Position numbers and translations under genes: made by a program
The notes under the pieces: generated by a model
The model's input: only the letters and a program-made list of their open reading frames with translations
Told to the model about the DNA's origin: nothing
Databases searched by the model: none
Part shown: positions 9,892 through 37,931 of the stretch, in pieces
Layout of the letters: every line of letters starts with the position of its first letter
Position numbering within the stretch: the stretch's first letter is position 1
Origin: Escherichia coli
GTDB lineage: Bacteria > Pseudomonadota > Gammaproteobacteria > Enterobacterales > Enterobacteriaceae
Length of the DNA stretch: 64,000 nucleotides
Strand: one strand, 5' to 3'
Assembly: GCF_003790525.1 (NCBI RefSeq)
Contig: NZ_CP033635.1

Positions 9892-11317
9892 TAATGCCGA
9901 TCAGTTAAGGATCAGTTGACCGATCCAGTGGCTGTGTAAGAATCCGGAAACGCTCACTTGTTTCCGGATTTTTTTATGCACATTGGACAGGCTCTTGATC
10001 TGGTATCCCGTTACGATTCTCTGCGTAACCCACTGACTTCTCTGGGGGATTACCTCGACCCCGAACTCATCTCTCGTTGCCTTGCCGAATCAGGTACTGT
10101 AACGCTACGCAAGCGCCGTCTTCCCCTCGAAATGATGGTCTGGTGTATTGTTGGCATGGCGCTTGAGCGTAAAGAACCTCTTCACCAGATTGTGAATCGC
10201 CTGGACATCATGCTGCCGGGCAATCGCCCCTTCGTTGCCCCCAGTGCCGTTATTCAGGCCCGCCAGCGCCTGGGAAGTGAGGCTGTCCGCCGCGTGTTCA
10301 CGAAAACAGCGCAGCTCTGGCATAACGCCACGCCGCATCCGCACTGGTGCGGCCTGACCCTGCTGGCCATCGATGGTGTGTTCTGGCGCACACCGGATAC
10401 ACCAGAGAACGATGCAGCCTTCCCCCGCCAGACACATGCCGGGAACCCGGCGCTCTACCCGCAGGTCAAAATGGTCTGCCAGATGGAACTGACCAGCCAT
10501 CTGCTGACGGCTGCAGCCTTCGGCACGATGAAGAACAGCGAAAATGAGCTTGCTGAGCAACTTATAGAACAAACCGGCGATAACACTCTGACGTTAATGG
10601 ATAAAGGTTATTACTCACTGGGACTGTTAAATGCCTGGAGCCTGGCGGGAGAACACCGCCACTGGATGATACCTCTCAGAAAGGGAGCGCAATATGAAGA
10701 GATCAGAAAACTGGGTAAAGGCGATCATCTGGTGAAGCTGAAAACCAGCCCGCAGGCACGAAAAAAGTGGCCGGGACTGGGAAATGAAGTGACAGCCCGC
10801 CTGCTGACCGTGACGCGCAAAGGAAAAGTCTGCCATCTGCTGACGTCGATGACGGACGCCATGCGCTTCCCCGGAGGAGAAATGGCGGATCTGTACAGTC
10901 ATCGCTGGGAAATCGAACTGGGATACAGGGAGATAAAACAGACGATGCAACTGAGCAGGCTGACGCTGAGAAGTAAAAAACCGGAGCTTGTGGAGCAAGA
11001 GCTGTGGGGTGTCTTACTGGCTTATAATCTGGTGAGATATCAGATGATTAAAATGGCGGAATATCTGAAAGGTTACTGGCCGAATCAACTGAGTTTCTCA
11101 GAATCATGTGGAATGGTGATGAGAATGCTGATGACATTGCAGGGCGCTTCACCGGGACGTATACCGGAGCTGATGCGCGATCTTGCAAGTATGGGACAAC
11201 TTGTGAAATTACCGACAAGAAGGGAAAGGGCCTTCCCGAGAGTGGTAAAGGAGAGGCCCTGGAAATACCCCACAGCCCCGAAAAAGAGCCAGTCAGTTGC
11301 TTAACTGACTGGCATTA
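9892..11317 (+). mobile_element. IS4 insertion sequence (1426 bp)
   Basis: Terminal inverted repeats taatgccgatcagttaagg / ccttaactgactggcatta (imperfect); flanked by a 13-bp direct duplication ctcaactgagggg at 9879..9891 and 11318..11330; single transposase ORF. Confidence 0.9.
9976..11304 (+). CDS. insG: IS4 transposase (DDE family)
   Basis: 442 aa from ATG 9976 ([40 protein letters not shown]...); ORF-track start at 9958 is a TTG extension. Confidence 0.9.
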
Positions 11318-13299: not shown

Positions 13300-15747
13300 T
13301 TAACCGTCATGCATCATGCTGGCACGGGCGCGCACACGTTTATCCCGCTCGTATTTTTCGAGCGCATCCTGTAACTGGCGGTCGAGCTGTGTCCCCGGCG
13401 CAGTACCACCCGTCAGGCTGATGTGATATTCGTTTTTACTCTGGTCCACATAAGAGCGGCCAGCCGGTGCCGTGACCGGCTGATAAGCCTGATAGCCTGC
13501 ATAAGAGCTGGTCGCCGGAATATAACCACCGCTGCCATACGTGGCGGCTTGAGTTCTGGCGGCGGTCTGGTCAAGTGTGTCTGACTCTTTGTTGATAACA
13601 CCGAGTTTTTCCAGTACCCAGTCAATACCGCTGCGCAGTTTGTTGAACGCATTAAGCGGCAGCATCAGCGCGTCAGCCAGTGCCTGCCCGAACATGACCC
13701 CCGTGTCACGGCAACTGTTCAGGGAGTCCTGAGTGGCTTTGACCGGGGCAATCAGGTTTTTAAACCACTGCCACGCGGCCTGTAACTTTTCACCCAGCCA
13801 GTCAAACACCGGCTTAAGTGGCGTGAACAGTTCCCCCACCGGCGCAAATGCCACTTTCAGCCCTTCAACCACACCGCCAAAGAATGCGCTGACAGGCTCC
13901 CAGTATTTACGGATAAGCAACGCCCCGGCGACAATTGCGGCCACCACGGCCACAACCGGCCAGCTAATAACCCCGATGGCGGTCATAACAGCACTGCCAA
14001 CCGTCGTGAAGACTGCCCCCATTGCGCCTGCTGCCGCGATGATGGCATTGATGCCGGTGATAACCGGCCAGGCTACGAGGCCAATGGCACCGATGATGCC
14101 AGTCAGCGCCAGCGCGCCACCGGCAATGATGCCGATGGTTGACGCCAGTGATTTGTTTTTCTGGATCCAGCCGTCGAGTTTTAACACATACTTTGTGGTC
14201 GTCTGCGTGAGCTTACGCAGCGCGCCTTCCTGCTGGTCAAACAGGTCAGTCCCCACTGCCTCATAAGCGGACTGAAACTCTTTAAAGTCACCGCCTAGGT
14301 TGTCCTGCATGATATTTACCAGCTCGGCGGTCTTCCCGTCTGAGGATTTAAACGCAGCGGTCAGTTTGTCCAGCTTTCCGGTTGAGGCGGCAGTCATCAG
14401 CACGGCGGCGGCTGAGCTGGCCTCCTCCCCGAAAATAGTTTTCATGTATTCAGCCTGCTGGGCAGTACCGAGCCGGTTTTTCTCAAAACTGGCCTGCATT
14501 TCTTTCAGAATGGTAAATATTGGCCGGGTGTTTCCCTTGCTGTCTGAGGTTTTCACTCCAAGCTCTTTGAGTGCATCCCATGCTTTTCCCGTCGGTGCCT
14601 GCAGGCGGCTTAACACGGCACGGCTTCCCGTCCCCGCCATTGAGCCTGTGATTTTTGCATCATGCAGCGCCCCGACCATTGCGGCGGTTTCTTCAATGCT
14701 GACACCGGCATTTTTTGCCACAGGTGCGGCATAGGTCAGCGCATCGCTCATGCCGTCAAAATCGGCGGCGGTTTTGTTCATCGTCATGGAGAGAACATCC
14801 CCGATATGAGCGACCTTATCGTTTGAAAGCTGAAAGGCGGATTTCATCCCCATCAACAGGGCGGCGTTTTCTTCCATCGTGCGGCGGTTCGCCAGCGCCA
14901 TATTCAGCGTGACCGGCGTTGCCGCCTGAATGGCATCAACATCCCCACCCGCTTTCGCGATGATTATCTGTGCACCGGCCGCATCATCCGCCGAGGCGGC
15001 GGTATTGTCGCCGAGCTGGCGCGCCTGTTTGCGTAGTGCGGTCATTTCGGCGGAGTCTTTTGCCACTCCGAGCACGGCCAGCAATTCTGAGTTTTTCTGC
15101 GCAAACTCATAACCTGGCATCAGCAACTTAACTCCGGCCATCGTTCCCGCCGCCGCAATCCCCACACCGGCAGCGCCCACTGAGGCCATATTTCCGGCCA
15201 GTTCCTTGCCTGCCTGATAACGCTGTTTTACTGCGTTAAGTTTTGCCTGTTGCGCACTGACACGCGCCAGCGCGTCACGCTGACGGTTAAGCTGTGCGGT
15301 GGTTTCACTGATACGGTTTTTCAGTCCCTGCTCATCATGTGCAAGATTGCGGGTATTAATTCCCACAACGGCCAGTTCCCGCTGCTGGCGTTTAACGGAA
15401 TCCGTCAGGCGGTTATATTTCGCCTGTAAGTCCTCCGCCGCACGCTTCGCGGATTCCAGCACTTTCGCCTGAGCACGTGTCGGACGTTCGGTGTTTTTAA
15501 ACTGTGTGGCAAGGGCTTCGGCCTCCTGCCGTGCCTTTTCAAGTGCATGACCAGTCACGGCGAGCTGTGCACTGGTCTTGCGAAATCCCTCAATACGGGA
15601 TGCCTGACCGTTCAGCTCACGCAGTGATTTTTGTGTTTCCCGGATATCCCCCGACAGCGATTTGCTCGCTGTGCGGATGGATTTAAACGGGCGGGATGCC
15701 TGGTCAACAGCCCTGAGCAATACCTGTAATTTTACATTGTTACTCAT
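13300..15747 (-). CDS. T: Tail tape-measure protein T
   Basis: 815 aa, coiled-coil N-terminus and Gly/Ala-rich hydrophobic repeats; P2 gpT length. Confidence 0.9.
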   Translation of the reverse strand: MSNNVKLQVLLRAVDQASRPFKSIRTASKSLSGDIRETQKSLRELNGQASRIEGFRKTSAQLAVTGHALEKARQEAEALATQFKNTERPTRAQAKVLESAKRAAEDLQAKYNRLTDSVKRQQRELAVVGINTRNLAHDEQGLKNRISETTAQLNRQRDALARVSAQQAKLNAVKQRYQAGKELAGNMASVGAAGVGIAAAGTMAGVKLLMPGYEFAQKNSELLAVLGVAKDSAEMTALRKQARQLGDNTAASADDAAGAQIIIAKAGGDVDAIQAATPVTLNMALANRRTMEENAALLMGMKSAFQLSNDKVAHIGDVLSMTMNKTAADFDGMSDALTYAAPVAKNAGVSIEETAAMVGALHDAKITGSMAGTGSRAVLSRLQAPTGKAWDALKELGVKTSDSKGNTRPIFTILKEMQASFEKNRLGTAQQAEYMKTIFGEEASSAAAVLMTAASTGKLDKLTAAFKSSDGKTAELVNIMQDNLGGDFKEFQSAYEAVGTDLFDQQEGALRKLTQTTTKYVLKLDGWIQKNKSLASTIGIIAGGALALTGIIGAIGLVAWPVITGINAIIAAAGAMGAVFTTVGSAVMTAIGVISWPVVAVVAAIVAGALLIRKYWEPVSAFFGGVVEGLKVAFAPVGELFTPLKPVFDWLGEKLQAAWQWFKNLIAPVKATQDSLNSCRDTGVMFGQALADALMLPLNAFNKLRSGIDWVLEKLGVINKESDTLDQTAARTQAATYGSGGYIPATSSYAGYQAYQPVTAPAGRSYVDQSKNEYHISLTGGTAPGTQLDRQLQDALEKYERDKRVRARASMMHDG

Positions 15748-16167
15748 TCGTGTTTCCGCTTCGCCGGAGCGCCTTTTCGCGCCATGTGATGAGTTCGGTC
15801 AGGCTCATGGGATACAGTTCTGATGGCGGCCAGTGAAATATCACTGCCACATCCGCCATCAGGTCATCGACCGAGAGATTTTTCGGAAACGTCACTGCAC
15901 CGAGTTCGGCGACAAAAAACCGACCACCTTACCGGCCAGCGCCACAAGGTCAGGCAGTTCCAGCGCGGCGACCTCCTGTTCGGTCAGCATCGGTGCCGTC
16001 ATGCGCGGCAGCACTTTAATCAGTGCATCGACTTCGGAGTTCGCGACCGCAGCCAGACTGACACCGCGCAGCGTCCCGGCATTGGGTTTCATCAGCGTGA
16101 CCTGTTCGATAACCTGCTCACCACGCTTGACCGGATTGTCCAGGGTAATCACATTTTCTTTGTTCAT
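15740..16167 (-). CDS. E+E': Tail chaperone E+E-prime, made by programmed -1 frameshift
   Basis: Slippery heptamer T-TTT-TTG on the minus strand (plus-strand 15913..15919) near the end of E; hand translation of the -1 frame runs 57 codons to TAA at 15740..15742, overlapping the T start; total about 142 aa as in P2. Confidence 0.75.
15892..16167 (-). CDS. E: Tail chaperone E
   Basis: 91 aa, ...VVGFLSPNSVQ; P2 gpE length. Confidence 0.9.
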   Translation of the reverse strand: MNKENVITLDNPVKRGEQVIEQVTLMKPNAGTLRGVSLAAVANSEVDALIKVLPRMTAPMLTEQEVAALELPDLVALAGKVVGFLSPNSVQ

Positions 16168-16223: not shown

Positions 16224-16742
16224 TCACAGGCCGATATTGCGGCGGTGTTGCTCCAGCCGGTCGACGCCGTTCACCTTCTCAATCATGTTGATGGTGTCGA
16301 TTTCGACCAGCTCCTTACCGTCCATCGTCAGCCGGAAATAGGTGCAGACCACGGAGATTTTCGACTCAGTGTCTTCTCCCTGTTTACCCTCGCCAGTGTC
16401 GATTTCTTTCTGACGTCCACGCATGACCACTTCGACGGCCACCGTTTCGCCGGTATCGTCACGCTGGTAAGAGCCTGCAAAACGAATCGGCACAGCATCC
16501 ACACCGGTTGCGGCGTAAAGCTCCCAGATAACCGAATCCGGGAAGCCACCGAGTGACCACTCCATTGACAGCGCATCGTCATCAAGGCCGAGGTCTACCG
16601 GTGCGCTGCCGTTCATCCCCGCACCGCGATAGTTTTCGAGCTTACGGGTCAGTTTTGGCAGCGTGACGGACTTTGCAACGCCCTGATAGCTGTAGCCGTT
16701 CAGAAAGACGTTCATTAACTTGAGTTTGCGCGGCATTGCCAT
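16224..16742 (-). CDS. FII: Tail tube protein FII
   Basis: 172 aa, P2 gpFII length and position. Confidence 0.9.
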   Translation of the reverse strand: MAMPRKLKLMNVFLNGYSYQGVAKSVTLPKLTRKLENYRGAGMNGSAPVDLGLDDDALSMEWSLGGFPDSVIWELYAATGVDAVPIRFAGSYQRDDTGETVAVEVVMRGRQKEIDTGEGKQGEDTESKISVVCTYFRLTMDGKELVEIDTINMIEKVNGVDRLEQHRRNIGL

Positions 16743-16754
16743 CGGTCAGGCTCC

Positions 16755-17945
16755 TTAATTGCTGTTAACCGAGGTGACCAGATTTGCCAGGTATTTATCG
16801 GTAATACGCTGGCGCAGGGTCAGGTTTTCAAGAGGAGGCACCGGGGTATAGTCGTAGTCGATATACAGTTTTCCGGCCTTAAGGGTTTCCGCATCGTTGG
16901 ATTCTTCGCTGAACCAGCAGGTCGCATCCACGATATAGCCGTTTGTTTTCAGCTCACGGAATTTGGCATTGATGCCGTCAACGATGTCGCGAATCAGCGT
17001 TGCGGTGATGGGCTTGTCCACCGCCCACATGTGCGCCTCAGCCATCGTGTCGGCCAGCACCTGCGCGGTGCGGGTGTAGTTTTCAAAGAGGAACAGCGGG
17101 TCATCAGAGCAGGTACGGTTACCCCAGAATCGGAAACCGTCGCGGCGAATCAGCGTAGTGACGCCTGACTCGTTAAGCAGGTCAGCATCGGTGCCGGACT
17201 CCTGCAAATCCCAGAATACAGATGCGCTGATGCCGGTAACACCGTTCACCCCGACATTGGACAGCGTTTTATGCCAGCCCTGCTCCTGGTCGATTCTGGC
17301 ACGCAGACCCAGCGCACGGGCGGTGGCATACGCGGTGGCGGTGGTGCTGGTGACCGTATCCCATGCGAGGAAATCCGGCCAGATGACCATCAGCTCACGC
17401 TGGCTGAAATTCTGGCGGTAGGCTTTCACCTCGGAAATGGTTTTACAGCCCCATGCGCTGATATACCCGAAAGCGCGCAGCTTCTGACAGACTGATGCCA
17501 GTGCAACAGCCACCTCTTTGGTATCCAGCCCCGGCACGCCGAGAATACGCGGTTTAACACCGGTTACCGACTCCGCCGCCAGCAGGGCTTTCAGTCCGGT
17601 GTACTGACCGTTTTCGTCGGTGGTGCCGATGATATTGGAAACGGTCTGCGCAAGTTTCGTTTCCTCGTCGTCGCCGGTGCCGTCTTCCACACGCACGACA
17701 ACGGTGACCGGTTTTGACTGGTCGGCGATGGCCTGCAACGATGCCGCCAGCGTGCCTTTTTTACCGGCCTTTGCAATTGCGCTCTGCACATTGGTAATCA
17801 GCACTGGTTTATTGAGGGGGAAGATTTCCGCATCCGCATCGCTGGCCGTGCAGACCATGCCAACAATGGCGGTGGATACGGTGGAAATGACGCGGGTGCC
17901 GTCGTTAATCTCCAGCACCTGCACGCCGTGATGATAGTCACTCAT
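16755..17945 (-). CDS. FI: Contractile tail sheath protein FI
   Basis: 396 aa, MSDYHHGVQVLEINDGTRVISTVSTAIVGMV...; P2 gpFI length. Confidence 0.9.
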   Translation of the reverse strand: MSDYHHGVQVLEINDGTRVISTVSTAIVGMVCTASDADAEIFPLNKPVLITNVQSAIAKAGKKGTLAASLQAIADQSKPVTVVVRVEDGTGDDEETKLAQTVSNIIGTTDENGQYTGLKALLAAESVTGVKPRILGVPGLDTKEVAVALASVCQKLRAFGYISAWGCKTISEVKAYRQNFSQRELMVIWPDFLAWDTVTSTTATAYATARALGLRARIDQEQGWHKTLSNVGVNGVTGISASVFWDLQESGTDADLLNESGVTTLIRRDGFRFWGNRTCSDDPLFLFENYTRTAQVLADTMAEAHMWAVDKPITATLIRDIVDGINAKFRELKTNGYIVDATCWFSEESNDAETLKAGKLYIDYDYTPVPPLENLTLRQRITDKYLANLVTSVNSN

Positions 17946-18264: not shown

Positions 18265-19164
18265 TCAAAGAATTAGCACTTGCTCTTCACTAGAAACTAT
18301 GGTTCTGACTTCACGCTCAAATATTGGATCCATTATCATTTTTCTATTTGTTGGAATAGTAAATTTACCGAGTACCATGACAATGCTACTCAACGGAAAT
18401 AATTTTGGAGTAACATTTCCTAATTGAATCGTAGGATATATATTAAAGCCCCCTTTTATCCTCATTGGCGAACCTTCAATGAAGTGTCGATAATTAAATT
18501 TCGCCATAGGGATTCTCGCCACATGCACTTTCATAATTACAGCAACCTGAGCTATTTTTACTTTCTGGAGGTAAGTTGACAATCGTTCTAACTGCGTTGT
18601 TTCATAGAAAAAATCAGACCACGTTACAGTACTTGTTCCAGTAACAATTTTTATGCTGTTTCTCTTGTTGGGGTGAGCTTTTCCATATTCATAGATCTCC
18701 CGTAAGCTATCCATGTTCTTCACATAAGGGGCTTTCCGACCTCTCTTGACATAAACGCGGTCTGTAGTATCAGAAGGTGGATTTGCCTGCATAGCTGCAG
18801 CTTTTCTGCTTAATTTAGAGATATCATCTTCATCGAGTATATGTATACGGAATATATTATTACCTGTGGCAAGCGCACGGCTGATATCATGACTGGAATC
18901 ACTTGCATAAATTGTATTCAATCCTGAAGTTCCATACTGGCATAATTTGTCATGCGTGAAATTTTTTTCCAGTCTAAAGAAGGCGGGGATATGCAAGGTT
19001 TTATTAAAACTCCGACGAATATGGCTTTTGACATACACCAAATGAGCAGAGCAATTTGGGTCAGGACATTTGAGTGGATAGGGATTAACACTATAATTAA
19101 AAGTATTTACATTTACTAAAATCTGATTGTTATCAATAGCCTGAGTTATACGAATACCACTCAT
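18265..19164 (-). CDS. Hypothetical protein at the Z/fun variable locus between G and FI (candidate anti-phage cargo)
   Basis: 299 aa ORF with GGAGG 5 nt upstream of the ATG; AT-rich relative to flanking tail genes; no family recognised by eye (contains CPDPNC). Confidence 0.6.
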   Translation of the reverse strand: MSGIRITQAIDNNQILVNVNTFNYSVNPYPLKCPDPNCSAHLVYVKSHIRRSFNKTLHIPAFFRLEKNFTHDKLCQYGTSGLNTIYASDSSHDISRALATGNNIFRIHILDEDDISKLSRKAAAMQANPPSDTTDRVYVKRGRKAPYVKNMDSLREIYEYGKAHPNKRNSIKIVTGTSTVTWSDFFYETTQLERLSTYLQKVKIAQVAVIMKVHVARIPMAKFNYRHFIEGSPMRIKGGFNIYPTIQLGNVTPKLFPLSSIVMVLGKFTIPTNRKMIMDPIFEREVRTIVSSEEQVLIL

Positions 19165-19379: not shown

Positions 19380-19907
19380 TTATTGCGGCATTTCCGGCCA
19401 TTCAGGATTTGCAGGATCCACACGACTGACCAGAACACTATAGCGTTCCCATGCCTCCAGTCGACTACGCTCCTCATCTGTTGCCATATTCAGCCTGACC
19501 GCGCGCTCCAGCGGCAAAATCACGGATTCAGCTTCGGAAAGCAAAGCTGCCTTATGTAATTCCGCCAGTTTCTGCTGTTCGTCTGCCGTATAAATCCGCT
19601 TAATCACGGCACCATCCTTAAACATCCATTTACCTGAGTCGTCAGCACGTCGGTTGGAGGTAATATCAGGAACCTCAACAACGCTAAAACCTTCAGGATT
19701 AAGCGTTGAAGCATCTCTGGTGATAGCGACAATAATATTATTTTCATCGTAAACAATCTTTATTGTGTCTGGCTGAAAGTTCTTCACTTCCTCATACCAG
19801 TTTTTTCCGTCCTCAGAGTAAAGCCAGATAACTCCGTGTTTCTTTGTTAACTCATACTGTTCCAGTGTTTTAGCGTTACCCGCTTTTATGTTCTTTAAGT
19901 GCATCAT
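19380..19907 (-). CDS. G: Tail fibre assembly protein G
   Basis: 175 aa, P2 gpG length and position. Confidence 0.85.
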
Positions 19908-24439: not shown

Positions 24440-25225
24440 ATGTTCAGTGATAATGTGACTAATGCGTGGTGGTTTATCTCTTTGTATCTATTTTTATTAA
24501 TAGCATTAACATTTGTTACCTTTGGTAAAAGTAATCTTATGAGGTTTATTGCACATCATTTCAATCTTGAGTATTCAGACAGAAAGTTAAAAATGCTCGA
24601 CAAAAAATGGCGCGACATTCAACTATTTAAAATAATTAACGGAATCAATGTATCAGGCATCGAAGATGTGAGAATGATACAGCAGGGGCTGATTGATGGA
24701 AAACTAAAAACATCGTATTTTTTCCTTACTCGCTTCTGGGGTGACATAACAAAACCACCACACATAATTAAAACAACAATTGTAATTCTGGCCAGTATTA
24801 TTTATATTCTCTTCGCATGTTATATACACAATGAACAATCCGCTATAGTAAGGGATGCCATAGGTATACCATATAAAAATATGATGTACTATGTTTATAG
24901 TGACAAAGTTCTTTTATCCTTCAAAAATAAAACGGTTGAATTTAATAAAACTTATAGCCTTGCCGATTGCAAGAGTCTGCAAAACGTATTTATAAAAGAC
25001 ACACTTCCCGAGATCGCCTGCAATAAGCTCTTACAGCTAAACAAGGAGGACTCCGAATGGTTAAGTCAGGAGATTAAAGATAATAACAGCCACAGAAAAA
25101 CATTATTAATAATATCCCTAACCTATTTCATTTCAGGTCTGCTTATATTCCTGTCATATACAAAATTCCTTTACGCCAATAAGAAGGTTTTAGAATACAA
25201 AGCATCAAATAAAAACCACTCATAA
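24440..25225 (+). CDS. Hypothetical membrane protein at the orf30 position, opposite strand to the tail genes
   Basis: 261 aa, very AT-rich, about three predicted TM helices (WWFISLYLFLLIALTFVTF; TIVILASIIYILFACYI; LLIISLTYFISGLLIFLSY). Confidence 0.6.
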   Translation: MFSDNVTNAWWFISLYLFLLIALTFVTFGKSNLMRFIAHHFNLEYSDRKLKMLDKKWRDIQLFKIINGINVSGIEDVRMIQQGLIDGKLKTSYFFLTRFWGDITKPPHIIKTTIVILASIIYILFACYIHNEQSAIVRDAIGIPYKNMMYYVYSDKVLLSFKNKTVEFNKTYSLADCKSLQNVFIKDTLPEIACNKLLQLNKEDSEWLSQEIKDNNSHRKTLLIISLTYFISGLLIFLSYTKFLYANKKVLEYKASNKNHS

Positions 25226-34665: not shown

Positions 34666-34892
34666 CGCCCGCTTCATGGGTCGGTTTTGATGCAATTCCA
34701 AAAGCCGTCCAAACTCTCTTAGGCTAAATGTCCAACGAGAAAATAGTTCTTTGAATGTGAATGCATTTTAATGCAGAGTTATGCCCAGCATTTTTGTACA
34801 CTTCGATGTATCAAATGCGCTGCAAACGATCAAATATGGATGTTTTATCAAGCATCCCCCAAAAGATATTTACATCATCCCATGAGGTTAAG

Positions 34893-35966
34893 ATGGATAA
34901 CAAAATCGTAGAAATTGAGACAAATAAGCTTGATTTTGACCCTAAAAACCCACGTTTCTTTCGTCTCAATGATGCCAGTAACGCTGCAACAGTCATTGAG
35001 GAAATGTTAGATGACGAAAGTGTCCACGATCTAATGCTATCAATCGGTCAGCAAGGTTACTTTCCTGGAGAACCTTTATTGGCAGTAAAAAGCAATGGAA
35101 ACTACATCGTGGTTGAGGGAAACAGACGCTTAGCTGCTGTAAAGTTGCTCAATGGAGATCTGCTTCCTCCAAAAAGAAAACTTAAAGGTGTGCAAGAAAT
35201 CATTGATGATACTACCAATAAACCTAAGAAGCTTCCCTGCATCATTTATGAAAACCGAGAGGATGTACTGAGATATATCGGTTATCGTCATATAACTGGG
35301 GTCAAAGAATGGGACTCATTATCTAAAGCCAAATACCTTAAAGAGTTATGTGATACTTTTTATTCACATGAGCCTAAAGAGATAGTATTAAAAAATCTGG
35401 CTCGTGAGATTGGGAGTAAACCACATTATGTTGCAACACTTCTCACTGCACTGAACTTATATGAAGTCGCGCATGACCATGAGTTTTTTAATTTACCCAT
35501 GAAGGCTTCTGACGTGGAATTTTCATATATAACCACAGCTTTGGGATATTCAAAAATCACAAACTGGTTAGGTCTACAGGATAAAAAGGATTTTTTAGAC
35601 CCAAATTTAAATGAAGAAAACCTTAAGCGTTTATTCTCTTGGTTTTTTGTGCCTGACCAACAAGGTAGAACCATCATCGGTGAGTCTCGAAGAATAAAAG
35701 ATATTGCAGCAGTGGTTGAGAAACCCGAAGCAATTGAAATTCTCATGAAAAGTTCAAACTTGGATGAAGCATATCTATATACCAGCGGAGAAAGAGAAGC
35801 ATTAGATAAAGCACTAAACGCAGCTAGTGTTAAATTAAGAGTAGTTTGGGATATGCTACTTAAAGCTAAAGAATTAACATTAGAGCATGAAGAGGCTGCA
35901 TCTGAAATTTTTGAGATGTCAAAAAATATTAGAAATCAGATCAGAAGCAAAAGGGAGGATGATTGA
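34893..35966 (+). CDS. ParB/Srx-like N-terminal domain protein (cargo gene 1 at the old/tin position)
   Basis: 357 aa from ATG 34893 (RBS gagg upstream); ParB-box-like motifs LDFDPKNPRF and IVVEGNRRLAAVKLL; AT-rich. Confidence 0.7.
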   Translation: MDNKIVEIETNKLDFDPKNPRFFRLNDASNAATVIEEMLDDESVHDLMLSIGQQGYFPGEPLLAVKSNGNYIVVEGNRRLAAVKLLNGDLLPPKRKLKGVQEIIDDTTNKPKKLPCIIYENREDVLRYIGYRHITGVKEWDSLSKAKYLKELCDTFYSHEPKEIVLKNLAREIGSKPHYVATLLTALNLYEVAHDHEFFNLPMKASDVEFSYITTALGYSKITNWLGLQDKKDFLDPNLNEENLKRLFSWFFVPDQQGRTIIGESRRIKDIAAVVEKPEAIEILMKSSNLDEAYLYTSGEREALDKALNAASVKLRVVWDMLLKAKELTLEHEEAASEIFEMSKNIRNQIRSKREDD

Positions 35967-35970
35967 GATT

Positions 35971-36996
35971 ATGATTACAAATCTTGATTCAATGCCTTCT
36001 AATGAGCCTTATTTATGGGCTGATTATATTGAGATATTGGCCTTAACTAATATCGACAGGTCATTCAGTCGAGGAGACCTATATAGCACACTGCAAGCTC
36101 AACCCGAAGCAGTACTAGCTGAAACAGATGAAGCAGAAGAAGAGGGCGTTTATGATGTTGATGATGAAAATGATACGCCTGTACGCAAGAGAACAAAACG
36201 AAGTGTTAGTCGAGCATATACTGACAGAAAGTGGAGCTATGCGATAGGCTTCATACGACAACGCATTGATTTATTTGGGGATAGTTACCCTTTTACTTTA
36301 TCAGAAGACAACGATACTGTAGAGTTACGTGATATATCAGAAAAGCCACTGGAACATTTAGAAAGACTATATTTAGCTTTACTAATCTGTGCTAACATAA
36401 AATATGTCAACATAATGAGCAGAAGAGAGATAACGCGCAGTTTTGAACTAATTAGTTTACCTATTTTTGAAAGCCTAATGCCTAGCGGTAGCATAATAAA
36501 AGCATGCTGGGCTTCTGGTGGTCAAGCGGCCCCTTACACTGGAACTCTATATAATAAATTTAAGAGTATTGCTTCCGATATCCGTTGCACAGCGAACTTC
36601 AAAGAACGAGATTTCAGTCGAGGAAATAGTGGTGACGGAGGCCTTGACATAATTGCCTGGCATCCAATGGGAGATCAACGAGATGCCATCCCTATTTCTT
36701 TTGTTCAGTGTGGCTGTTCTCAAGAAGAGTGGGAAGCGAAGCAGCTTGAGGCCTCACCTGCGATGCTCTACAGTAAATTCCCCGTAGCTCACCGATGGGC
36801 AACTTATTATTTCTTACCTCAAGATCTACGATGGATAGATGGTGAGTGGGCGCATAAAAATAAGTTAGGCGATGCTATTTTTGTTGATCGCCTAAGATTA
36901 ATCAATTTAACCAGAGCATCTGATAATATTGATCACAGTCAAAATATTAGCTATCTAGATATCATCCTTGATCCTTCCAGCGCGATCGCTGCTTAA
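35971..36996 (+). CDS. Hypothetical protein, possible PD-(D/E)xK-type nuclease (cargo gene 2)
   Basis: 341 aa; starts 4 nt after gene 1 (alternative ATG 35959 overlaps its stop); contains GDGGLDIIAW ... ISFVQCGCSQEEWEAK, resembling an Mrr-type catalytic core but lacking the canonical QCK lysine. Confidence 0.6.
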   Translation: MITNLDSMPSNEPYLWADYIEILALTNIDRSFSRGDLYSTLQAQPEAVLAETDEAEEEGVYDVDDENDTPVRKRTKRSVSRAYTDRKWSYAIGFIRQRIDLFGDSYPFTLSEDNDTVELRDISEKPLEHLERLYLALLICANIKYVNIMSRREITRSFELISLPIFESLMPSGSIIKACWASGGQAAPYTGTLYNKFKSIASDIRCTANFKERDFSRGNSGDGGLDIIAWHPMGDQRDAIPISFVQCGCSQEEWEAKQLEASPAMLYSKFPVAHRWATYYFLPQDLRWIDGEWAHKNKLGDAIFVDRLRLINLTRASDNIDHSQNISYLDIILDPSSAIAA

Positions 36997-37931
36997 TCCC
37001 ATAAATCTGGAAGGTTTCTAGCAACCGCCTCAAACAATGGAGGCGGTACTGCATTACCTACCACAGTATATTTCATATTAATAGAAGCCCGTTCAGTTTC
37101 TGGGAAAATTAAATCCCCAAAACCTTGTAAAATAGCAGCCTCTCGATAGCTAAACCTACGAGCTGGTGCATCCGAAGTAAATTGCCACTTATCAGGTCCC
37201 AATTTTTCTAATGTTGGACTTATTGGATGTAGAGGCATATGTCTAGGATTTGCAACAATTGTTTTAGATATCTGATCCCAATCTTGCCTACGGTTTCGCG
37301 ATAGATAATACCAATGAAAATCGGCGTCATAAAACTCGCCAACAGGCCAAACAGGCATATGCCCAATAGCATCACGAATTGTGGAATATGGTGTCAAACC
37401 ATCACCATGTGTTGGTTTTGGAAATTTGTATGTAATACCGTAGTCCTTTCGTATTCCTACGATAAAGATTCGCTTCCTATCTTGGGATACCCCATAATGG
37501 GACGCATTCAGAATTTGCGAGCTTACTGTATAACCTGCTTCTTCGAAAACTTTGAATTGATCCTTTAATAAATGCTCAAAGTTACGCCTTACCATACCAG
37601 AGACATTCTCTACAATGAATGCTTTTGGCTTAATTTTACTCAAAGCACGGGCAAACTCTAAATATAGTGTATTAATCTTTCTATCTGCCTTCCTTGCCCC
37701 ACCTTGACTAAATCCTTGGCAAGGATAGCATCCGATGAGCAACTCAGCAGAAGGGAACGACTGGAGCCCTGAGATATCGCCCAAAATGTAGTCAGTTTCA
37801 GGATGGTTTTCTAAGTAAACGTCCCTTGCGTAAGGCAAAATATCATTTGCCATAAGCACATTGAAACCTGCGTTCAAAACTCCCGCATCAGAACCACCAC
37901 ATCCAGAAAAAAGTGAAACTACAGTTGGCAT
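36993..37931 (-). CDS. DNA cytosine-5 methyltransferase, HaeIII/HhaI-type small m5C MTase (cargo gene 3)
   Basis: 312 aa with motif I FSGCGG, motif IV PCQGFS, motif VI ENV, motif VIII QDRKR, motif X GNAVPPPL, plus YYLSRNRRQDW resembling the M.HaeIII variable region; convergent with gene 2 (4-bp overlap). Confidence 0.85.
   Translation of the reverse strand: MPTVVSLFSGCGGSDAGVLNAGFNVLMANDILPYARDVYLENHPETDYILGDISGLQSFPSAELLIGCYPCQGFSQGGARKADRKINTLYLEFARALSKIKPKAFIVENVSGMVRRNFEHLLKDQFKVFEEAGYTVSSQILNASHYGVSQDRKRIFIVGIRKDYGITYKFPKPTHGDGLTPYSTIRDAIGHMPVWPVGEFYDADFHWYYLSRNRRQDWDQISKTIVANPRHMPLHPISPTLEKLGPDKWQFTSDAPARRFSYREAAILQGFGDLIFPETERASINMKYTVVGNAVPPPLFEAVARNLPDLWD

What the first reader, a model, noticed from the sequence alone, without database searches (positions are those of the whole stretch)
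15740..15919. Programmed -1 frameshift site for tail chaperone E/E-prime
The heptamer T-TTT-TTG sits nine codons before the E stop. I translated the -1 frame by hand: it runs 57 codons to a TAA that overlaps the T start, giving a product of about 142 aa. This is the conserved G/GT-type tail chaperone frameshift and is absent from the ORF track.
Basis: seen in the sequence. Interest (0 to 1): 0.35.

Follow-up and report, generated by a model that had tools for sequence, protein, structure and literature searches.

The report
Known P2 tail-chaperone E/E+E' frameshift

Summary
On the minus strand, gene E (16167..15892, 91 aa) carries an in-phase T TTT TTG at 15919..15913. The -1 frame then runs 57 codons to TAA 15742..15740, inside codons 2-3 of tape-measure gene T, giving a 142-aa fusion. 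The extension matches Pfam PF06528 (1.2e-21) and E matches the tail-chaperone family PF10109. The window is base-for-base identical to phage P2 across the whole signal and E'. The P2 reference record annotates E+E' with a "site of -1 translational frameshift", and the literature describes it (Christie 2002). The window is the P2-like prophage of E. coli SMS-3-5. In 178 of 179 related loci (18 lineages below 60% identity), an in-phase slippery heptamer and an open -1 frame are conserved. Independent initiation and transcriptional slippage are poorly supported. RefSeq's pipeline miscalls E' as a separate 51-aa gene. One possibly new detail: an anti-Shine-Dalgarno-complementary element (AGGUGGUC, 15929..15922) sits just 5' of the heptamer. 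It is conserved beyond the coding constraint in all 13 T-run lineages and absent from the 5 lineages with other heptamers. It may be an unrecognised stimulator, but this is untested.

The parts
15892..16167 (-). Gene E: 91-aa tail assembly chaperone, the zero-frame product
   Evidence: Translation. Pfam PF10109 Phage_TAC_7, E = 2.6e-12. P2 gene E. Called 'phage tail assembly protein' in RefSeq.
15913..15919 (-). Slippery heptamer T TTT TTG, in phase with E codons 83(3rd base)-84-85
   Evidence: Identical to the P2 site. Marked as the frameshift site in the P2 record. Conserved in phase in 178 of 179 related loci.
15740..15913 (-). E' extension: -1 frame, 57 codons plus TAA, starting by re-reading G15913
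   Evidence: Translation. Pfam PF06528 Phage_P2_GpE, E = 1.2e-21, on residues 104-139 of the fusion.
15740..16167 (-). Whole E+E' coding region: 142-aa frameshift fusion, junction ...VVGFL|VAELGAV...
   Evidence: Same structure as the P2 joined CDS 19430..19857.
15922..15931 (-). SD-like element TAAGGTGGTC. AGGUGGUC (15929..15922) can pair 8 bp with the 3' end of 16S rRNA. Candidate 5' stimulator (inferred, untested). Its TAA is also the -1 frame stop that bounds E' on the 5' side.
   Evidence: Duplex dG of -12.3 to -14 kcal/mol; top 0.6% of its locus. Synonymous-recoding rank 0.04. Conserved with T-run heptamers only.
15740..15895 (-). 51-aa GTG ORF that pipelines call as a stand-alone 'GpE family phage tail protein'. 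An annotation artefact, being the 3' part of E'.
   Evidence: No SD upstream of the GTG (dG -1.1, rank 0.82).
13300..15747 (-). Gene T: tape measure protein, 815 aa. Its start overlaps the E' stop by 8 nt (ATGAGTAA).
   Evidence: PF10145, E = 2.4e-45. P2 gene T.
16224..16742 (-). Gene FII: tail tube protein, immediately upstream of E
   Evidence: PF04985, E = 2.3e-60.
16755..17945 (-). Gene FI: tail sheath protein, first gene of the F operon
   Evidence: PF04984, PF17482 and PF22671. P2 FI.
15820..15862 (-). 10-bp hairpin (CTGATGGCGG...CCGCCATCAG) starting 51 nt 3' of the heptamer. Probably a by-product of the LMAD...PPSE coding sequence, not a stimulator.
   Evidence: Fully paired only in close enteric relatives, no compensatory changes, decays in other lineages.

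Best explanation
This is the programmed -1 ribosomal frameshift of the P2-type tail gene operon (FI-FII-E-E'-T-U-D).

Most ribosomes translate E to its TGA stop and make the 91-aa chaperone gpE. A minority slip back one base with tRNA-Phe on UUU in the P site and tRNA-Leu on UUG in the A site. They re-pair on UUU UUU, resume at GUC, and add 57 residues to give the 142-aa gpE+E'. That reading frame terminates just inside the T start.

Both products share the N-terminal chaperone domain; only the fusion carries the E' domain. This fixes a roughly 10:1 ratio of the two tail-assembly chaperones.

By analogy with lambda gpG/gpGT, the shared domain coats the tape measure protein and the E' domain recruits the tube protein. 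That step is inferred, not shown here.

Basis of each step:
- Shown in the sequence: heptamer, phase, open frame, homology and synteny.
- Shown experimentally in P2, on an identical sequence: the frameshift itself and the essentiality of E'.
- Inferred: the binding partners, and any role for the upstream SD-like element.
For: - Sequence anatomy is as described.
- The window is 100% identical to phage P2 from 53 nt 5' of the heptamer to beyond the T start.
- The P2 record annotates E+E' as a joined CDS with '-1 frameshift; essential tail protein'.
- Literature: TTTTTTG gives the 91-aa and 142-aa products (PMC3091744). [quoted passage not shown] Efficiency in P2 and related phages is 2-3 times that of lambda (PMC5009743).
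- Pfam: PF10109 on E and PF06528 on the extension.
- Synteny: the pair lies between the tube and tape measure genes.
- Conservation: 178 of 179 loci have an in-phase X XXY YYZ heptamer plus a -1 ORF of at least 30 codons past the E stop. Among 128 distinct proteins in 18 lineages below 60% identity, 108 use TTTTTTG. Others use TTTTTTC/A/T, G GGA AAG, C CCT TTC or A AAT TTT.
- The base before the heptamer's codons is always T, whatever amino acid that codon encodes: GGT, CTT, ACT, AGT, AAT.
- Phage 186, KL3 and Mana records already annotate the same frameshift.
- Chance is low.
Against: - Nothing in the sequence contradicts this reading.
- No experiment was done on this particular prophage.
- I could not read the primary P2 paper. 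The roughly 10% efficiency is from my recollection of its abstract plus the review's '2-3-fold higher than lambda'.
- UUG is a relatively poor A-site shifter in E. coli, and unstimulated heptamers reach at most about 10 times background (PMC4066793). How P2 reaches its efficiency is therefore not fully explained.
- There is no conserved downstream structure (PMC3091744).
Confidence: 0.95

Rival explanations
1. E' is a separate small gene translated from its own start codon (GTG 15895, overlapping the E stop as GTGA). It would give a free 51-aa protein, as RefSeq/PGAP annotates it.
For: - PGAP calls a 156-nt CDS 'GpE family phage tail protein' in the identical genome.
- That 51-aa sequence is deposited on thousands of contigs.
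- The GTGA stop/start overlap resembles translational coupling.
- The Pfam match (residues 104-139 of the fusion) lies downstream of that GTG.
Against: - There is no SD before the GTG: anti-SD dG is -1.1 kcal/mol, rank 0.82 in the locus.
- In 6 of 18 lineages the first ATG/GTG/TTG in the -1 frame lies downstream of the start of the conserved ADI motif, so a free E' could not carry the conserved domain.
- Candidate start positions are not conserved, whereas the in-phase heptamer is.
- The P2 literature says E' lacks an RBS and is made as an extension of E (P2 record).
- A natural single-ORF E-E' fusion exists in L253.
Confidence: 0.03
2. The frame change happens at the RNA level. RNA polymerase stutters on the T6 run and adds one U, and ordinary translation of the edited mRNA yields E+E' with Phe instead of Leu at residue 85.
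For: - The dominant site is a homopolymeric T6 run, or T7 in some relatives (T7G/T7C in PMC3931495).
- The poor intrinsic shiftiness of UUG leaves room for another contribution.
- A 142-aa 'GFF' version exists in NCBI as RJK13013.1, though it probably reflects a T7 allele or a sequencing error.
Against: - Eleven distinct proteins in 5 lineages use G GGA AAG, C CCT TTC or A AAT TTT. These have no run long enough for polymerase slippage but obey the tandem-tRNA X XXY YYZ rule in phase.
- From general knowledge, six T's is below the run length usually needed for efficient transcriptional slippage in bacteria.
- The anti-SD-complementary element next to the site would act on ribosomes, not on polymerase.
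Confidence: 0.04
3. The overlap is a chance open frame with no biological role.
For: The heptamer on its own is not over-represented in the window: 26 found against 20.4 expected.
Against: - The extension matches Pfam at E = 1.2e-21.
- It is conserved across 18 lineages.
- Only 2% of codon positions in neighbouring genes have such a long -1 frame, and 0.2% have any in-phase heptamer.
- P2 genetics marks E+E' as essential.
Confidence: 0

Closest known systems
Bacteriophage P2 gpE / gpE+E' (Christie et al. 2002, J Bacteriol 184:6522; NC_001895 genes E and E+E')
   Same: The slippery site, the 53 nt upstream of it and the whole E' region are identical in nucleotide sequence. Gene order is the same (FII-E-E'-T) and the products are the same size (91 and 142 aa).
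   Different: Only nine single-base differences, all in the 5' part of E. The element here is an integrated prophage in the E. coli SMS-3-5 chromosome with different cargo genes.
Phage lambda gpG / gpGT tail assembly chaperones (Levin 1993; Xu, Hendrix and Duda 2004, 2013, 2014)
   Same: Two overlapping ORFs between the major tail/tube gene and the tape measure gene. [quoted passage not shown] Some P2-family lineages even use lambda's heptamer G GGA AAG.
   Different: No sequence similarity (PMC3931495) and a different Pfam family. The tail is contractile rather than non-contractile. The heptamer here is T TTT TTG, and efficiency is reported as 2-3 times higher.
E. coli dnaX and IS911/IS3-type -1 frameshift signals with an upstream Shine-Dalgarno stimulator
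   Same: A slippery heptamer preceded by a sequence complementary to the 16S rRNA 3' end.
   Different: The aligned spacing is about 7 nt in the window, against 9-14 nt reported for -1 stimulation. There is no conserved downstream hairpin or pseudoknot. The heptamer ends in UUG rather than AAG. No stimulatory role has been shown.
Phage 186 orf51/orf52 and other Peduoviridae E/E' pairs (KL3 gp18/gp19, Mana tape measure chaperones)
   Same: Homologous proteins, the same heptamer in the same phase, and the same position in the operon.
   Different: 33-76% protein identity to the window's E in the sampled genera. The length of the E tail after the slip site varies from 4 to 24 codons.

Membership tests
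P2-type gpE / gpE+E' tail chaperone pair (Peduoviridae) | The upstream ORF belongs to the E-type tail assembly chaperone family | tested here: met
   PF10109 Phage_TAC_7: E = 2.6e-12, 47 bits against a 25-bit cut-off.
P2-type gpE / gpE+E' tail chaperone pair (Peduoviridae) | The -1 frame extension is homologous to P2 E' | tested here: met
   PF06528 Phage_P2_GpE: E = 1.2e-21, 76 bits against a 23-bit cut-off. 100% nucleotide identity to P2 E'.
P2-type gpE / gpE+E' tail chaperone pair (Peduoviridae) | In-phase slippery heptamer near the 3' end of E, with no -1 frame stop between it and E' | tested here: met
   T TTT TTG at E codons 83(3rd base)-85, followed by 57 open codons.
P2-type gpE / gpE+E' tail chaperone pair (Peduoviridae) | Located between the tail tube gene (FII) and the tape measure gene (T), with E' ending at the T start | tested here: met
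   FII 16742..16224, E 16167..15892, E' to 15740, T from 15747.
P2-type gpE / gpE+E' tail chaperone pair (Peduoviridae) | The fusion protein is actually produced (about 10%) and is essential for tail assembly | not testable with these tools
   Shown for P2 on an identical sequence, according to the P2 record and secondary literature. Not measured for this prophage.
Lambda G/GT-type conserved tail chaperone frameshift (Xu et al. 2004 class) | Two overlapping ORFs between the major tail/tube gene and the tape measure gene, joined by a -1 frameshift | tested here: met
Lambda G/GT-type conserved tail chaperone frameshift (Xu et al. 2004 class) | The short form binds the tape measure, the long form also binds the tube protein, and both are absent from virions | not testable with these tools
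   Described for lambda in PMC5009743. Inferred by analogy for P2.
Lambda G/GT-type conserved tail chaperone frameshift (Xu et al. 2004 class) | Sequence homology to lambda gpG/gpT | not tested
   The literature states there is no amino-acid similarity (PMC3931495), and Pfam places E in a different TAC family. The relationship is therefore functional and positional; common ancestry is not demonstrated.
SD-stimulated -1 frameshift signals (dnaX, IS911 type) | Sequence complementary to the 16S rRNA 3' end upstream of the heptamer | tested here: met
   AGGUGGUC: dG -12.3 to -14 kcal/mol, top 0.6% of its locus. Beyond the coding constraint in 13 of 13 T-run lineages.
SD-stimulated -1 frameshift signals (dnaX, IS911 type) | Spacing of 9-14 nt between the SD and the shift site | tested here: not met
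   Aligned spacing is about 7 nt in the window and in 9 of 13 T-run lineages. It is 12 nt in two Burkholderia lineages and 9 nt in the Pseudomonas lineage. The rule is quoted from PMC5009743.
SD-stimulated -1 frameshift signals (dnaX, IS911 type) | Removing the SD lowers frameshifting; a compensating anti-SD change restores it | not testable with these tools
   Needs reporter assays.

The most novel reading that the evidence does not exclude
The P2-type U UUU UUN frameshift is not stimulator-free, as is usually stated. It may use a conserved 5' stimulator: an anti-Shine-Dalgarno-complementary element (AGGUGGUC in the window, 15929..15922), placed about 7 nt (aligned spacing) before the heptamer. 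That is closer than the 9-14 nt described for dnaX.

The element is kept at synonymous sites in all 13 lineages with T-run heptamers. It is missing from the 5 lineages that use intrinsically better or different heptamers (G GGA AAG, C CCT TTC, A AAT TTT). This pattern suggests it compensates for the poor shiftiness of UUG.
Probability: 0.4. Interest if true: 0.35.

Novelty: already known. Interest (0 to 1): 0.12.

Why it matters
As a finding, it matters little. The E/E+E' frameshift of P2 has been known and tested since 2002, and this prophage carries the identical sequence.

It has practical value for annotation. RefSeq's pipeline splits the fusion into E plus a spurious 51-aa gene. The region is present in 1583 of the 5426 complete E. 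coli genomes searched, so the true 142-aa essential protein is missing from most protein databases.

The side observation could matter more if confirmed. An upstream anti-SD-complementary element co-varies with T-run heptamers. It would help explain how a mediocre slippery sequence reaches a reported efficiency several times that of lambda. It would also extend the known spacing rules for SD-stimulated -1 frameshifting.

Tried and rejected
- **Primary paper.** I tried to read Christie et al. 2002 by DOI and by PMC id. It is not held, so I relied on the P2 GenBank record and on three papers that describe it.
- **First relatives search.** The first scan returned 80 loci that were nearly all 99-100% identical, which was useless for conservation. 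I replaced it with a protein-level spread of phage records and three scans with divergent queries.
- **Downstream stimulator.** The 100 nt 3' of the heptamer fold better than shuffles (z = -3.3). The signal comes from a 10-bp hairpin 51 nt away. It is intact only where the LMAD/PPSE peptide is identical, has no compensatory changes and decays in other lineages. I rejected it as a stimulator, in agreement with PMC3091744.
- **First SD test.** The first synonymous-recoding test gave only a trend. I redid it with better codon usage and 1467 control windows.
- **One script error.** The script failed because its regex matched too early, and the rerun used an arm offset one base out; both were corrected.
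- **Rfam.** No family matched. The two hits are far below threshold and on the wrong strand.
- **PDB.** No sequence relative has a solved structure.
- **Structure prediction.** Not run, because it could not change the verdict.
- **The one locus without a heptamer (L253).** It proved to be a single-ORF E-E' fusion, not a counter-example.
Full report
**1. What is in the sequence**

The genes here lie on the minus strand.

- Gene E runs 16167..15892 and encodes 91 aa ending ...AGKVVGFLSPNSVQ*.
- The heptamer TTTTTTG lies at 15919..15913. The local codons are GGT(83) TTT(84) TTG(85), so it is in the canonical X XXY YYZ phase.
- Re-reading G15913 in the -1 frame gives VAELGAVTFPKNLSVDDLMADVAVIFHWPPSELYPMSLTELITWREKALRRSGNTNE. 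That is 57 codons, followed by TAA at 15742..15740.
- The tape-measure gene T starts at ATG 15747..15745, so the two frames overlap by 8 nt (ATGAGTAA).
- The fusion is 85 + 57 = 142 aa.
- The -1 ORF opens at 15928, which is 37 nt back into E. This is the figure reported for P2 (PMC3931495).

The bare heptamer is common: 26 copies in the window against 20.4 expected. The combination is not. In nine neighbouring late genes, only 2% of codon positions have 57 or more open -1 codons, and 0.2% carry any in-phase heptamer.

**2. Identity**

- E matches Pfam PF10109 (tail assembly chaperones 'E, or 41 or 14').
- The -1 extension matches PF06528 (Phage P2 GpE) at 1.2e-21.
- The flanking genes are the tail sheath, tail tube, tape measure, gpU and gpD.
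- The 701-bp region is 98-99% identical to many Peduovirus genomes.
- It is 100% identical to the chromosome of E. coli SMS-3-5, among other strains. Similar DNA occurs in 1583 of 5426 complete E. coli genomes.
- The window contains that strain's complete P2-like prophage. It lies between cpxP and an IS4 element.
- Aligned to phage P2 (NC_001895), the window is identical from 53 nt upstream of the heptamer to beyond the T start.
It also carries a feature 'site of -1 translational frameshift' directly after the heptamer.
- PMC3091744 states that in P2 the -1 shift occurs at TTTTTTG and produces the 91-aa E and the 142-aa E+E'.
- PMC5009743 says the efficiency in P2 and relatives is 2-3 times that of lambda G-T.
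- I could not obtain the primary paper. My recollection of its abstract is about 10% efficiency, shown with fusion polypeptides and complementation.

**3. Conservation**

I fetched 18 annotated phage loci whose E proteins are 76% down to 32% identical to the window's. They span 18 genera or unclassified groups. Three scans of viral contigs added 163 more.

- Of 179 usable loci, 178 have an in-phase X XXY YYZ heptamer inside the E/-1 overlap and a -1 ORF reaching at least 30 codons beyond the E stop.
- Among 128 distinct proteins the heptamers are: TTTTTTG 108, TTTTTTC 6, TTTTTTA 2, TTTTTTT 1, G GGA AAG 9 (six of these were tallied under the adjacent in-phase A AAG GGC), C CCT TTC 1 and A AAT TTT 1.
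- The extensions share the motif ..V[DE]D.[MIV]AD[IV]A.[IV]FHW.P.......L.EL..WRE.A..RSG.
- The base preceding the slip codons is T, whatever amino acid that codon specifies (GGT, CTT, ACT, AGT, AAT). This is selection on the RNA, not on the protein.
- The single exception, L253, encodes E and E' in one continuous 131-aa ORF.
- Records of phage 186, KL3 and Mana already annotate the frameshift.

**4. Rival readings**

*(a) Independent initiation of E' at GTG 15895.* RefSeq's pipeline annotates it this way. That 51-aa protein is deposited very widely, whereas the fusion is essentially absent from databases. Against this reading:
- The GTG has no SD (dG -1.1 kcal/mol, rank 0.82).
- Start-codon positions are not conserved.
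- In 6 of 18 lineages the first possible start lies downstream of the start of the conserved motif.

*(b) Transcriptional slippage on the T6 run.* This cannot be excluded for T-run sites from sequence alone. However, five lineages use heptamers without a homopolymer run that still obey the tandem-slippage rule.

*(c) Chance.* This is excluded by homology and conservation.

**5. How it works**

- Shown or established: ribosomes with tRNA-Phe (UUU, P site) and tRNA-Leu (UUG, A site) slip back one base and continue at GUC. This yields gpE and gpE+E' from one start codon at a fixed ratio.
- Inferred by analogy with lambda gpG/gpGT (PMC5009743): the shared domain binds the tape measure protein T, and the E' domain recruits the tube protein FII. 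Neither product stays in the virion.

**6. Stimulatory elements**

No Rfam family matches.

Downstream, the only notable structure is a 10-bp hairpin 51 nt away. It tracks the LMAD...PPSE coding sequence, shows no compensatory change and decays in other lineages. This agrees with the published statement that P2-type sites lack downstream structures.

This leaves a small puzzle. In E. coli, UUG is a poorer A-site shifter than UUU or UUC, and unstimulated heptamers exceed background by at most about 10-fold (PMC4066793).

Immediately upstream of the heptamer is TAAGGTGGTC (15931..15922). Its AGGUGGUC can form 8 bp with the 16S rRNA 3' end, with dG of -12 to -14 kcal/mol.

- In 12 of the 19 first loci, this 14-nt window is in the top 5% of anti-SD affinity across its 1.6-kb locus, a background that includes the true ribosome-binding sites.
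- After clustering into 18 lineages below 60% identity, the 13 T-run lineages have a median in-locus rank of 0.008. The 5 lineages with other heptamers have ranks of 0.39-0.67.
- I ran a synonymous-recoding test with locus-specific codon usage. It was calibrated on 1467 control windows (median rank 0.56). The T-run lineages rank 0.001-0.43, with a median of 0.125 (Mann-Whitney p = 1.4e-6). The other lineages rank 0.46-0.90.
- The pairing register is the same in 9 of 13 T-run lineages, with about 7 nt between SD-consensus position 8 and the heptamer. This holds even though different parts of the SD consensus are used (AGGUGGUC, GGAG, UAAGGA, GGAGGUGGUC). Two Burkholderia lineages sit at 12 nt and the Pseudomonas lineage at 9 nt.

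Caveats:
- The lineages are not phylogenetically independent.
- The residues K/E-V-V/I-G are themselves conserved.
- The spacing is shorter than the 9-14 nt reported for -1 stimulation.
- I found no mention of this element in the literature I could search, but the primary paper was not readable.

I treat this as a testable hypothesis with a probability of about 0.4.

**7. Verdict**

The feature is already known and was experimentally established on an identical sequence, so interest is low. The useful by-products are the systematic mis-annotation of E' as a 51-aa gene and the candidate 5' stimulator.

Noticed in passing
window 15740..15895 (-); NC_010498 ECSMS35_RS21900: RefSeq/PGAP annotates E' as an independent 51-aa 'GpE family phage tail protein' rather than as a frameshift fusion. 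That exact 51-aa sequence sits in a cluster of 165 sequences, with individual members on up to about 1000 contigs each. The Leu-85 form of the 142-aa fusion is not in the 15-billion-protein collection at all.
   Followed up: yes
protein RJK13013.1 (P0001), found: A 142-aa 'GFF' version of the fusion (Phe instead of Leu at residue 85) is deposited from 3 contigs. This implies a T7 allele or a one-base sequencing error that fuses E and E' permanently.
   Followed up: no
window 18265..19164 (-): A 299-aa AT-rich ORF (about 38% GC, against about 55% for the phage backbone). It lies between tail-fibre assembly gene G and sheath gene FI, the position of the non-essential fun(Z) gene in P2. It has no Pfam or PADLOC hit and matches only phrog_7195 (unknown function). 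RefSeq calls it 'hypothetical protein'. It is a candidate moron or defence gene.
   Followed up: partly
window 24440..25225 (+): A 261-aa AT-rich ORF (37-41% GC) on the opposite strand, between the virion morphogenesis (S) and baseplate (V) genes. It has no Pfam hit and matches phrog_2407 (unknown function). This is another cargo insertion in the late region.
   Followed up: partly
window 34761..37931: A three-gene cargo block at the position of P2 tin/old, next to the portal gene. It contains a 401-aa protein resembling PADLOC PD-Lambda-5_A / PDC-M38A (RefSeq: ParB N-terminal domain protein), a 369-aa protein of unknown function (phrog_3984), and a C-5 cytosine DNA methyltransferase (PF00145, 1e-61; best PADLOC match DruM). 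Probably a restriction-modification-like or other defence system.
   Followed up: partly
window 9958..11304 (+): An IS4-family transposase (PF13006 + PF01609) directly abuts the ogr end of the prophage. The other end, with the integrase, lies next to cpxP in E. coli SMS-3-5.
   Followed up: partly
L253 692..1087 (+): A distant relative encodes the E and E' domains in one continuous 131-aa ORF, with no heptamer and no frameshift. It lies downstream of what looks like the C-terminal end of a tape-measure-like ORF. It is a natural 'always-fused' variant with a different gene order.
   Followed up: partly
L099, L185-L194 (Mannheimia/Pasteurellaceae-like loci): These P2-family lineages have replaced T TTT TTG with G GGA AAG, the same heptamer as lambda G-T. 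They lack the upstream SD-like element.
   Followed up: partly
window 15905..15910 (-) and the equivalent positions in relatives: The bases just 3' of the heptamer are unusually conserved across genera: nnGCCGAA, nnGACGAA or nnACCGAA, 3-8 nt after the heptamer. This region is translated in two frames, so I could not separate protein constraint (x-A/D-E in E') from RNA constraint.
   Followed up: no
window 15820..15862 (-): A perfect 10-bp inverted repeat (CTGATGGCGG / CCGCCATCAG) inside E' makes the region fold better than shuffles (z = -3.3). It is conserved only where the encoded peptide is identical.
   Followed up: yes
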